From positions 736,001 through 800,000 of the forward strand of contig OY970364.1 in the NCBI GenBank assembly GCA_963718565.1: a stretch of 64,000 nucleotides of DNA, in the 5' to 3' direction. Made by a program: the position numbers and the translations under genes. Below are positions 24,866-27,151 of the stretch, in pieces. Positions within the stretch are counted from its first letter, which is position 1; each line of letters begins with the position of its first letter. Source of the DNA: an uncultured Verrucomicrobiae bacterium (GTDB lineage: Bacteria; Chlamydiota; Chlamydiia; Chlamydiales; Rhabdochlamydiaceae). Below the pieces are notes generated by a model. The model saw only the letters and a list, made by a program, of their open reading frames with translations, was not told the DNA's origin and did not search any database.

Positions 24866-27151
24866 ATGTTCGAGCTTTCCGTCGCTTTAAAGTATCTCAT
24901 TCCGCGCAGAAGACAGCTTTCCGTCTCTTTAATCGCTCTTCTTTCCGTGGTTGTGATCTCGCTTGTTGTTTGGCTGGTTCTGGTCTTCCTTTCTGTCACC
25001 GAAGGGATAGAGCGCGGCTGGCTGCAGAAATTGACAACTTTAAATGCTCCTTTACGGATCACTCCGACACATCACTATTATTCTTCTTATTACTATCAGA
25101 TTGATTCCGTCAGCAACCGTTCTGATTATTCTTTAAAAAATATCGCAGAGAAAGCGCGCACAGAGAGTGCAGACCCCTACAATTCCTTAGAAGATGGAGA
25201 GTTGCCAGTTCGATTTCCACAGCCTGACCTTTCCAGAGAGGGGGCGCTAAGCGATCCCGTGAAAGGGCTATTTCAGATACTGTCAGGCATGAAAAAATCC
25301 CATTCCGATCTCGTTTTTCAAGATTTTGAGCTGAGTGGAGCTCTGCTGCGCCTGCAGCTTTTACGACCTGGCAATGGGATGCCAGGCACAGAAACTCAAG
25401 GATATCTTACCCAAGTCTCCTATCTGGCCTCTCTTCCCGATCAGTGCCCTAGGCTTTCCTCTCTGCTTCTTCCTCCAAGAGAAAAAGATCTGAATCATTT
25501 GCTTTATCTCGCTTCGCACTCTACGGAGCTATCGCGTCAAGATTCCCCAGCATTCACTCTTAAAACTAGCAGAGAGACCGCACAAAACCGTATTCATGCC
25601 CTTCTTCAGCATGTCACCATCAAACAGCTTAAGCCCTCTTATTCGTTCTGGCAGGTTCCTTCTTCCTTTTTACCCTTAACCCAAGTTTTTGAAGGAATCG
25701 TTCACGACGGTCATGGAAGCATCAGCCGCATCGATCTGCCTTTAGAAAAAGGAAAGGGCAGACAGACATCTGGCAACCCTGTAAAGGTCTGGAAAAACAG
25801 CTCCCACTTCATCGTGGAGGATGAAAAAGGCAAACAGCAAGTTCTCTCGTTAAATACCCCCCTTTTAGTCGACGGCCCGATTCTTTTTCATGTGGAAGGC
25901 GTTTCGAAAACAATCCCCCTTCTATTTAAAGTCCACACTTCTCTTCAGGGCATTTCTTTTAAAGGAGATCTCGGAATAGAGGGGATGGAAATTGTCCAAG
26001 CAGATTTTTTCTCGCAACAATTATACCGCGCGCAGGAAGGTTTTGTGAATTTGGACTCAGCGAGGCAAAGCACAATCGAAGCTTGCGCTCCGAATGACGA
26101 AGCCATAGTGAAAACTATGGCTGCGGAGACACGAGAAGGTCTAGTAGACCTTCGCAGTACAGAGCAGGTGAGCGAAGCGAACGGGGAGGATCGATTGGGC
26201 AAAGCCGCAGCCAGTCCAAATTCACAAAACCTGACGGAGCGCGGTATAGGTCCGGCAGCTCCTTGGATCGGCCCACAAAAACTCCTTCCTATCAACGAAG
26301 AAAATGAAACAGGTGTTCTGCTCGCTAAAAGCTTTTTAGACCATGGAGTGATGATGGGTGATCGAGGCTACCTTTCCTATTCGAGCACGACATCCAGCGC
26401 AGTCCAAGAACATCGCCTACCGGTCTTTGTCTCTGGATTTTACGATCCCGGTATTCTCTCTGTAGGGAATAAATGCATCCTTGTTCCTCCTTTTGTCACG
26501 AGCACGATCAATGCCTCAAGCACATCCTTCAATCTCGATAAAACACAGTCCAATGGCATTCTGGTCTGGTTTGATAGCCTCCAGGAAGCGGGTGAGATTA
26601 AACATCAGATCTTGGCAGCTTTGAAAAGCCAAGGTCTCGACAAATACTGGAAAGTCACGACCTTTCGAGAATATGAATTTGCTAAAGATCTTCTAGAGCA
26701 GTTCCAAAGCGATAAGTATCTCTTTGCCTTGATCGGCGTCATCATCCTGATCGTCGCCTGTTGCAATATCATCTCTTTGCTCGTCCTGCTCGTCAATGAT
26801 AAAAAACGCGAAATCGGCATTTTGCAGACAATGGGGGCAAGCAATGTCAGCATCGCCGTCATTTTCGGGTCCTGCGGCATGGCCATGGGGATCTTAAGCA
26901 GCATCATTGGGGCTGTTGCTGCAGTATTCACTCTTCATCATATCGACATCGTCGTTCAATTCCTGAGCTTTATTCAAGGCCACGAAGCTTTCAATACAAT
27001 GTTTTTTGGAAAGTCGCTTCCCGGTGCTTTAAGCCGCAATGCATTGACTTTCATTTTAGTGACCACTCCCCTTCTTTCTCTTTTAGCAGGACTTGTTCCC
27101 GCAATTAAAGCTTGCCGCCTCCGCCCCTCCGCGATATTGAGGTCCGAGTGA
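24866..27151 (+). CDS. LolC/E (FtsX-like) ABC permease with in-frame palindromic insertion
   Basis: N-terminal ALKYLIPRR plus TM; C-terminal DKKREIGILQTMGAS and RLRPSAILRSE; lies upstream of lolD. Confidence 0.88.
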   Translation: MFELSVALKYLIPRRRQLSVSLIALLSVVVISLVVWLVLVFLSVTEGIERGWLQKLTTLNAPLRITPTHHYYSSYYYQIDSVSNRSDYSLKNIAEKARTESADPYNSLEDGELPVRFPQPDLSREGALSDPVKGLFQILSGMKKSHSDLVFQDFELSGALLRLQLLRPGNGMPGTETQGYLTQVSYLASLPDQCPRLSSLLLPPREKDLNHLLYLASHSTELSRQDSPAFTLKTSRETAQNRIHALLQHVTIKQLKPSYSFWQVPSSFLPLTQVFEGIVHDGHGSISRIDLPLEKGKGRQTSGNPVKVWKNSSHFIVEDEKGKQQVLSLNTPLLVDGPILFHVEGVSKTIPLLFKVHTSLQGISFKGDLGIEGMEIVQADFFSQQLYRAQEGFVNLDSARQSTIEACAPNDEAIVKTMAAETREGLVDLRSTEQVSEANGEDRLGKAAASPNSQNLTERGIGPAAPWIGPQKLLPINEENETGVLLAKSFLDHGVMMGDRGYLSYSSTTSSAVQEHRLPVFVSGFYDPGILSVGNKCILVPPFVTSTINASSTSFNLDKTQSNGILVWFDSLQEAGEIKHQILAALKSQGLDKYWKVTTFREYEFAKDLLEQFQSDKYLFALIGVIILIVACCNIISLLVLLVNDKKREIGILQTMGASNVSIAVIFGSCGMAMGILSSIIGAVAAVFTLHHIDIVVQFLSFIQGHEAFNTMFFGKSLPGALSRNALTFILVTTPLLSLLAGLVPAIKACRLRPSAILRSE
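26024..26246. mobile_element. Palindromic element inserted in frame (+75 aa) in lolC/E
   Basis: Ends taccgcgc...gcgcggta with TA duplication; 223+2=225 nt; inner arms ggttttgtgaatttggact / agtccaaattcacaaaacc. Confidence 0.9.

What the first reader, a model, noticed from the sequence alone, without database searches (positions are those of the whole stretch)
26022..26248. TA-targeting palindrome inserted in frame (+75 aa) in the lipoprotein-release permease LolC/E
A 223-bp element plus TA duplication (225 nt) encodes YRAQEGF...LTERGI within the predicted periplasmic region. Excision gives QQL-GPAAPW. Non-coding relatives lie at 28169-28231, 36397-36425 and 56882-57049. Lol transport is generally essential in Gram-negative bacteria, so this is probably a translated, tolerated de novo peptide derived from selfish DNA.
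Basis: partly seen in the sequence, partly recalled or inferred. Interest (0 to 1): 0.8.

Follow-up and report, generated by a model that had tools for sequence, protein, structure and literature searches.

The report
Translatable mini-transposon inside chlamydial lipoprotein transporter
A small hairpin-shaped mobile DNA element sits in frame inside the only copy of a conserved lipoprotein-transporter-like gene of an environmental chlamydia, likely adding a tolerated floppy 75-residue loop, and its ends match those of an IS630 transposon that likely moves it, much as Rickettsia's in-frame palindromes are known to behave.

Summary
Confirmed. A 227-nt palindrome (net 225 nt, TA duplicated) adds 75 residues in frame to a 761-aa LolC/E/F-like permease. 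The closest homologue is exactly 75 aa shorter, and 0 of 119 homologues carry the peptide. The site is a length-variable periplasmic loop, predicted disordered. The peptide is not unique: the family sits in the same frame in 6 of 18 full-length copies here (tsaE, TolC and others) and 7 of 15 in a relative (dnaX, recC, and lolD of this operon). Frameshifting sister families are in frame in 0 of 37 copies. Added here: an IS630 in a same-order genome has ends matching this element at 25-26 of 31 bases, and 26 of 26 full-length copies from a DNA-pattern scan have net lengths divisible by three. Translation, essentiality and Lol function are inferred: no RNA data, scores below the lolCE cut-off, no LolA found. 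Verdict: a new chlamydial member of a known kind (IS630-type MITE that works like the Rickettsia RPEs). The scan already noted this family in tsaE, TolC and other genes of this genome.

The parts
24651..24809 (+). rpmG, ribosomal protein L33, upstream neighbour
   Evidence: NCBIfam TIGR01023 64.8 bits, over cut-off 23.95
24866..27151 (+). Host gene: LolC/E/F-like permease, 761 aa, frame open through the element
   Evidence: ORF; PF02687; TIGR02212 best family, E 9.5e-49, below cut-off; best PDB sequence hit LolF, E 7.8e-35; best fold hit LolE, E 7e-14; a match in 58 of 61 genomes searched
26022..26248 (+). The element: 223-nt core between two TA dinucleotides, net insertion 225 nt
   Evidence: Sequence; near-identical dispersed copies, 98.7% to the tsaE copy; empty sites in orthologues
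26022..26079 (+). Left terminal inverted repeat arm; outer 31 nt match an IS630 end at 25 of 31
26191..26248 (-). Right terminal inverted repeat arm; outer 31 nt match an IS630 end at 26 of 31
26128..26185 (+). Optional internal hairpin module (net 57 nt, 19 codons) that separates the 227-nt form from the 170-nt form; also present in a different repeat family
   Evidence: alignment of copies; joint 26127-26186 in public contigs; inverted match to 54370-54429
26024..26248 (+). Inserted 75 codons, residues 387-461: 13 Asp/Glu, 8 Lys/Arg, 1 Cys, no hydrophobic segment; residues 407-455 predicted at pLDDT under 50
27148..27816 (+). LolD-like ABC ATPase; GTG start overlaps the permease stop
   Evidence: sequence; TIGR02211 best family, 218.6 bits against cut-off 307.75
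28156..28231 (+). Truncated relative (right 76 nt of the 170-nt form), intergenic
   Evidence: 98.7% to family consensus
36397..36425 (.). 29-nt terminal remnant of the 172-nt non-coding sister subfamily
56881..57051 (.). Full copy of the 172-nt non-coding sister subfamily (net 170 nt, stops in all six frames of its consensus), intergenic; its ends match another IS630 at 21-22 of 25

Best explanation
The 225-nt insert is a non-autonomous miniature transposon that landed at a TA in a Leu codon of the single lolC/E/F-like gene, was likely moved by an IS630-family transposase supplied in trans, and is likely translated as a mostly disordered, acidic 75-residue loop on the periplasmic domain that the transporter would tolerate without gaining a function. 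Shown: the insertion, the open frame, the TA duplication, the family, the match of ends to IS630 elements, and the variable length of the host loop. Inferred: mobilisation by that transposase clade, translation, retained transport activity, near-neutrality. The element survives in genes because its net length is a multiple of three and one frame is open; copies that land out of frame in needed genes would be purged.
For: Empty site: P0002 and P0003 are exactly 75 aa shorter; the loop is 18-52 aa in 119 homologues and 116 aa here; 0 of 119 carry the peptide. TA duplication: orthologous empty sites keep one xTA-type codon at the DUF455 copy and at a sister-family copy. Family census: in frame in 6 of 18 full-length copies in G000 and 7 of 15 in G005 (4 of the 33 had unresolved ends), all 13 in the same strand and phase. 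Frameshifting sister families in G000: 0 of 17 and 0 of 20 (Fisher p 7e-6 computed on 13/31 against 0/37). Open frame and 3n length in 6 of 6 read-through genic copies against 3 of 10 others (p 0.011). Hosts by Pfam include TsaE, TolC, DnaX, RecC, RecD, PriA, LpxK, LpxB, RNase R and the LolD-like ATPase of this operon in G005. Decayed genic copies lose a terminal repeat yet keep the frame (recD, nagZ, lpxB). In-frame share observed (6/18, 13/31) fits the 0.37 expected if in-frame hits survive as well as intergenic ones (p 0.81, 0.58). IS630 link: L274 (G411; 1175 bp; DDE_3 plus HTH) has ends matching the element at 25 and 26 of 31; 80 sites in G000 lie within 6 mismatches, 77 of them in this superfamily, 0 in 8 shuffles. 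Two further IS630s of the same clade match two sister subfamilies (24-25 of 27; 22-23 of 25). Model: mean pLDDT 86.9; the flanking strands 374-381 and 482-487 lie in blocks of 96; insert 407-455 under 50.
Against: No expression data. No transposase with matching ends was found in G000: its 15 near-identical IS630 copies share only the terminal TA-TAC, and G005, which has many copies, has no DDE_3 match. The matching IS630 is from another family of the same order. One copy (G000 2234083) sits out of frame at codon 3 of a gene, and one frameshifting sister copy breaks a gene in the middle (1156636), so purging is incomplete. The insert has no homologous rows in the alignment, so low pLDDT is expected whatever its real structure. 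The permease is below the lolCE cut-off, LolA and LolA-like families were not found, and a second permease scores E 4e-29 on the lolCE model. The genic/intergenic split rests on my own simple coding model.
Confidence: 0.8

Rival explanations
1. The insertion has crippled the gene or the gene is dispensable, for example because the second 401-aa MacB/FtsX-type permease with its own ATPase covers the function.
For: The second permease scores E 4e-29 on TIGR02212 and lies beside an ABC ATPase. LolA was not found. The insertion is recent (98.7% identical to the tsaE copy), so decay may not yet show.
Against: The host gene is intact over 761 codons, 86% identical to its closest homologue, and matched in 58 of 61 genomes, whereas the second permease is in 10 of 61. 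The same peptide sits in frame in many single-function housekeeping genes.
Confidence: 0.09
2. The hairpin is removed or skipped at the RNA level (splicing or ribosome bypass), so the protein lacks the 75 residues.
For: Very stable end-to-end hairpin (z -10.7) with exact ends.
Against: Precise removal would let frameshifting families live in genes, but they are in frame in 0 of 37 copies. Decayed copies without a full palindrome keep the frame. No Rfam match at E up to 1. The peptide lacks intein termini (intein motif recalled; sequence seen).
Confidence: 0.05
3. The insert has been domesticated and gives the permease a new property (spacer, interaction surface, disulfide).
For: It lies on the periplasmic domain about 40 residues before the hairpin that aligns with the LolF hook region (hook position recalled); residues 382-406 are modelled as a helix.
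Against: Found in 1 of 120 proteins listed, nearly identical to copies in unrelated proteins and between genes, and no look-alike cluster above 0.79 in the Atlas.
Confidence: 0.04
4. Assembly artefact: a repeat was misplaced into the gene.
For: No public contig bridges either junction with 31 or more bases on both sides.
Against: Single-contig genome; exact TA duplication in frame; this copy has its own substitutions; a 151-nt contig with no differences crosses the right junction with 26 bases inside the element (short of the 31-base rule); the same kind of insertion recurs in independent genomes.
Confidence: 0.02

Closest known systems
Rickettsia palindromic elements (RPEs; Ogata et al. 2000, 2002; seen only as passages in PMC10969869, PMC2229807 and PMC1779305)
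   Same: Dispersed palindromic repeats in an intracellular bacterium, fused in frame into conserved genes with a shared peptide; several families per genome. One RPE-bearing enzyme (Gmk) is reported translated and active (passage in PMC2229807).
   Different: Different phylum; longer (net 111-243 nt, against about 100-150 bp); clear TA duplication and a transposase clade with matching ends, whereas the PMC2229807 table leaves the RPE target duplication as unknown; copies are young (93-99% identical). Sequence homology to RPEs was not tested.
RUP of Streptococcus pneumoniae with IS630-Spn1 (passage in PMC2229807)
   Same: Short non-autonomous element with TA target and ends resembling an IS630; link indirect in both cases.
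   Different: RUP is described as intergenic and without an open frame; this family keeps an open frame and sits in genes. Here the matching IS630 was found in relatives, not in the same genome.
ERIC/IRU, YPAL/RU-2 and Correia 107-bp elements (table and passages in PMC2229807)
   Same: Hairpin MITEs with open frames and some in-frame gene fusions; ERIC and Correia have TA ends; Correia has long and short forms that differ by an internal module.
   Different: In-frame residence here reaches about 40% of full-length copies and includes core genes; peptide is acidic and hydrophilic rather than hydrophobic as described for YPAL.
LolF / LolC / LolE permeases (PDB 9w37, 7arh; passages in PMC12846838, PMC9963962)
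   Same: Best sequence and fold matches; one permease gene next to one LolD-like ATPase, as in homodimeric LolDF systems.
   Different: About 680-aa chlamydial form with a much larger periplasmic region; below curated cut-offs; no LolA detected; function untested.

Membership tests
IS630-type MITE (RUP-like) | Short, no transposase, multi-copy | tested here: met
   227 nt; 93 loci with similarity in G000, 18 full-length copies of the closest subfamilies
IS630-type MITE (RUP-like) | Terminal inverted repeats | tested here: met
   58-nt arms, 78% complementary
IS630-type MITE (RUP-like) | TA target duplication | tested here: met
   Net insertion equals length minus 2 against orthologues; the resident IS630 inserted in another IS shows the same TA duplication
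IS630-type MITE (RUP-like) | Ends resemble those of an IS630-family element | tested here: met
   25 and 26 of 31 to L274; sister subfamilies 24-25 of 27 to L251 and 22-23 of 25 to L268
IS630-type MITE (RUP-like) | Matching transposase present in the same genome | tested here: not met
   Resident IS630 shares only TA-TAC; no member of the matching clade found in G000 or G005
IS630-type MITE (RUP-like) | Mobilisation in trans demonstrated | not testable with these tools
   Needs a binding or transposition assay
Rickettsia palindromic elements | In-frame fusion of a shared peptide into unrelated conserved genes | tested here: met
   13 of 33 full-length copies in two genomes; hosts named by Pfam
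Rickettsia palindromic elements | Stable hairpin | tested here: met
   z -10.7
Rickettsia palindromic elements | 100-150 bp, in Rickettsiales | tested here: not met
   Net 168-225 nt in G000; homologues are labelled Rhabdochlamydiaceae/Chlamydiota by their sources. It works like an RPE but is not filed as one.
Rickettsia palindromic elements | Sequence homology to RPE-1 to RPE-10 | not tested
   No RPE sequence was compared; Rfam gave no match
Rickettsia palindromic elements | Translation of the insert shown | not testable with these tools
   No RNA or peptide data were available
LolC/E/F permease | Curated lolCE model score over cut-off | tested here: not met
   166.4 against 362.45 bits; the long chlamydial periplasmic region splits the match
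LolC/E/F permease | Closest solved relatives are LolF/LolE/LolC by sequence and fold | tested here: met
LolC/E/F permease | Adjacent LolD-type ATPase | tested here: inconclusive
   TIGR02211 is the best family but below its cut-off
LolC/E/F permease | LolA partner in the genome | tested here: inconclusive
   PF03548 0 of 1, PF17131 0 of 4 genomes; a divergent form is not excluded
Intein or self-splicing intron | Splicing motifs or an Rfam intron family; tolerance of out-of-frame positions for introns | tested here: not met
   No Rfam match; peptide begins Tyr and ends Ile; frameshifting families in frame in 0 of 37

The most novel reading that the evidence does not exclude
This is an IS630-derived MITE lineage selected, as an element, to stay translatable: across environmental chlamydiae it changes its internal modules only in multiples of three and keeps one open hydrophilic frame, so that genes, even core ones such as the lol operon (hit independently in lolC/E here and in lolD of a relative), serve as its refuge and source of new copies. 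It would be an RPE-like coding palindrome with an identified transposase clade, making the mobilisation of such elements directly testable.
Probability: 0.4. Interest if true: 0.7.

Novelty: new member of a known kind. Interest (0 to 1): 0.47.

Why it matters
In-frame selfish palindromes are published mainly from Rickettsia, where copies are old and the reviews I read name no mobilising enzyme. Here copies are young, empty sites exist in close relatives, and full IS630 elements with matching ends are in hand, so both the jump and its cost to the protein can be tested. The family also acts as a natural insertion scan of chlamydial core proteins: this copy marks a periplasmic loop of the LolC/E/F-like permease that appears to take 75 extra residues. 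For annotation, the shared peptide will create false homologies between unrelated proteins.

Tried and rejected
No RNA holder listed; this blank is no evidence either way. Laying DNA contigs of 5 of the 6 listed runs showed no empty allele and no contig bridging a junction by the 31-base rule; cover was patchy. The metagenome scan gave 2 loci, neither close enough for a DNA-level empty site. Partial copies in G000 were inspected for an enclosed transposase: none. The resident 15-copy IS630 was considered as partner and not supported beyond the terminal 5 bases. L237 looked like an IS630 with element-type ends but is two MITE copies inserted into an IS630 gene. Peptide-level selection as the cause of frame choice was considered: the reverse open frame (hydrophobic, 3-4 Cys) is used in 0 of 13 genic copies (p 8e-6), but 5 of 6 intergenic copies between co-directional genes have the same orientation too, so an orientation bias outside coding may explain it; two possible reverse-frame cases (L157, L172) have no Pfam or solid orthologue support. 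In one search, 11 of 20 G000 and 4 of 10 G005 flank matches were scored broken; most were to short or antisense ORFs and were set aside, and several of those to longer ORFs proved in frame or not genic on inspection. The 174-nt-net family of G005 is 3n yet read through in only 1 of 24 rows (10 unresolved), so 3n length alone does not give genic residence. Rfam and the ESM Atlas gave nothing. The second structure job (insert-free orthologue) and a complex prediction were not run. Ogata 2002 (PMC186582) is not held.

Full report
Setting. The window is G000:C1:736001-800000, a single-contig 2.28-Mb genome, 95% complete. Close homologues and element-bearing records are labelled Rhabdochlamydiaceae, Ca. 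Rhabdochlamydia or Chlamydiae by some sources (others say Verrucomicrobia), so I read it as an environmental chlamydia. The locus is rpmG, a 761-aa permease and an ABC ATPase.

Observation. The element spans 26022-26248, begins and ends with TA and adds codons 387-461 without a stop. Its arms are 58 nt, 78% complementary; it folds at z -10.7 with 0 of 200 shuffles as stable. Among the 120 best proteins listed, only the window protein carries the peptide. Between two conserved anchors it has 116 residues, the two closest homologues (86% and 85% identical) have 41, and the 119 homologues range from 18 to 52. The segment is therefore a recent 75-residue insertion in a loop whose length already varies.

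Host gene. The best families are lolCE and LolD, both below their curated cut-offs (166 of 362 and 219 of 308 bits). A profile of 106 sequences finds LolF first (E 7.8e-35), then LolE and LolC; the fold search ranks LolE and LolC chains first. One permease beside one ATPase fits a homodimeric LolDF arrangement (passages of PMC12846838 and PMC9963962), which would put two inserts on each transporter; this is inferred. The gene has a match in 58 of 61 genomes and one full copy in G000. Two other FtsX-type permeases exist; one scores E 4e-29 on the lolCE model but is found in only 10 of 61 genomes. LolA (0 of 1) and LolA-like (0 of 4) were not found. Essentiality is thus plausible but borrowed from Proteobacteria. 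The first two hydrophobic segments are at about 16-49 and 613-646, which places the insert in the periplasmic region. In the model (mean pLDDT 86.9) it leaves after strand 374-381, runs as a weak helix to 406, is below 50 over 407-455, and the chain resumes before strand 482-487. Because no homologue covers the insert, low confidence there is not proof of disorder; its composition (13 acidic, 8 basic, no hydrophobic stretch) agrees with it. By alignment to LolF the site lies between two strands about 40 residues before the hairpin that I recall as the hook.

Family. The element matches 93 loci in G000, one of several palindromic repeat families. Its own subfamilies are 170 nt and 227 nt (net 168 and 225), differing by a 57-nt module. 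By computed excision and a simple coding model, 6 of 18 full-length copies in G000 read through a gene (this one, tsaE at codon 2, TolC after its signal peptide, DUF455, a TPS-domain protein, a paralogue family), and 7 of 15 in G005; 4 of the 33 had unresolved ends. All 13 use the same strand and the xTA phase. Of three G000 copies scored broken, one lies upstream of the true start, one probably does, and one sits out of frame at codon 3 of a gene. The frameshifting sister families (net 170 and 172) read through in 0 of 17 and 0 of 20 rows; one breaks a gene in the middle. G005 carries a sister copy in frame at codon 4 of lolD, an independent hit on the same operon, and others in dnaX, recC, recD and an aminotransferase. 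Other relatives carry it in PriA, RNase R, LpxK, LpxB, GreA, a P-type ATPase and more; those loci were picked by peptide similarity and are not an unbiased count. A DNA match occurs in 53 of 129 genomes of the family. Counting TA sites, 37% of surviving copies should be in frame if such hits were as harmless as intergenic ones; 6 of 18 and 13 of 31 fit this. Intergenic sites are filtered too, so this is a relative statement.

Length rule. An exact 19-base scan of the genome collection gave 45 loci; 26 held a full-length copy and 19 did not (chance matches, contig ends, truncated or divergent copies). All 26 have net lengths divisible by three, in nine classes from 111 to 243; 22 are open, 13 are genic by my criterion. 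The copies come from few genomes and are related, so they are not independent. Against a strict rule: G000 has a one-base-longer variant spread over several intergenic sites, and the non-coding 172-nt subfamily is abundant, so an open frame is not needed for mobility.

Mobiliser. The resident IS630 (15 near-identical copies) duplicates TA but shares only the outermost bases. A search of the genus for DDE_3 (12 of 19 genomes) led to L251, whose 27-bp ends match an older in-frame sister copy in a G000 tyrosine-phosphatase gene at 24 and 25 of 27, the only two such sites within 4 mismatches. Following that transposase through the family (7 of 129) and order (9 of 401) gave L268, matching the 172-nt subfamily at 22-23 of 25 (33 sites within 4 mismatches, 0 in 5 shuffles), and L274, a 1175-bp two-ORF IS630 with perfect ends matching the window element at 25 and 26 of 31 (80 sites within 6 mismatches, 77 in this superfamily, 0 in 8 shuffles). 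The exact partner was not found in G000 or G005, so mobilisation by this clade is inferred.

Mechanism. An IS630-clade transposase likely inserted the element at the TA of a TTA codon, duplicating it; the net 225 bases read open in that phase; the ribosome likely reads through the hairpin and adds a hydrophilic loop at a surface position; selection has not removed it. RNA-level removal is unlikely because it would free frameshifting families to live in genes and because decayed copies keep the frame without a full palindrome. Whether the hydrophilic frame is chosen by selection on the peptide is open: the reverse open frame is unused in 13 genic copies, but intergenic copies show the same orientation bias (5 of 6).

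Literature. I saw passages of PMC10969869, PMC1779305, PMC2229807, PMC12846838, PMC9963962, and term counts for PMC9723776 (no MITE, palindrome or IS630 in the main text). The original RPE papers were not seen. Searches listed no paper on chlamydial MITEs or coding palindromes; most subscription journals are outside the library. Earlier notes of this scan describe the same family in tsaE and TolC and sister families in marC and other genes of this genome, and IS630-type MITEs in other genomes; they are not independent support.

Verdict. Real and well supported as an observation; a new chlamydial member of a known kind. It works like an RPE, is filed as an IS630-type MITE, and is not filed as an RPE. 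The added value lies in the matching transposons, the length rule and two independent hits on one operon. Interest 0.47.

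Noticed in passing
window 54282-54538: A 257-nt element of a different palindromic family sits in frame after codon about 18 of an oligopeptide ABC ATPase (ORF 54206-55438; PF00005, PF08352) and shares the internal module with the lolC/E element in reverse. Genome-wide, 18 of 54 near-full copies of this family lie inside ORFs with 150 or more host residues.
   Followed up: partly
window 30623-30792: A short hairpin remnant followed by the half of another repeat family that supplies the first about 30 codons of a sugar-transferase ORF (30704-31483, PF02397).
   Followed up: partly
L096:15465-15636 (G005): Sister element in frame at codon 4 of the lolD-like gene, directly downstream of an insert-free lolC/E: a second, independent insertion in this operon.
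   Followed up: yes
L064:16175-16346 (G005): In-frame copy in dnaX followed directly by a 7-codon remnant of a second copy.
   Followed up: no
L237:1343-2285 (G013): Two copies of a 164-nt sister MITE inserted at TA sites inside an IS630 transposase gene, as described for RUP in IS genes.
   Followed up: partly
G000:C1 353768, 1531321 region: Copies of the resident IS630 sit directly against the ends of MITE copies, suggesting that the TATA ends are themselves targets.
   Followed up: no
whole genome G000: No LolA or LolA-like match although a LolC/E/F-like permease and LolD-like ATPase are near-universal in the order; the chlamydial permease has about 280 extra, confidently modelled, strand-rich periplasmic residues relative to LolC/E.
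   Followed up: partly
window 22042-22788 and 22963-23748: Two tandem paralogues of an unnamed family (no Pfam match for the family member at G000 531345-532358, which carries an in-frame copy of the element).
   Followed up: no
window 7193-7287, 7463-7610, 16213-16269, 27993-28086, 40619-40784, 44624-44654, 47225-47394, 58663-58696, 60729-60840, 63877-64000: Further copies or remnants of five other palindromic repeat families, none inside a long ORF.
   Followed up: no
L042, L049, L054 (G005): A further MITE family with a different interior but ends matching the IS630 of L251, i.e. interiors and ends are exchanged independently.
   Followed up: no
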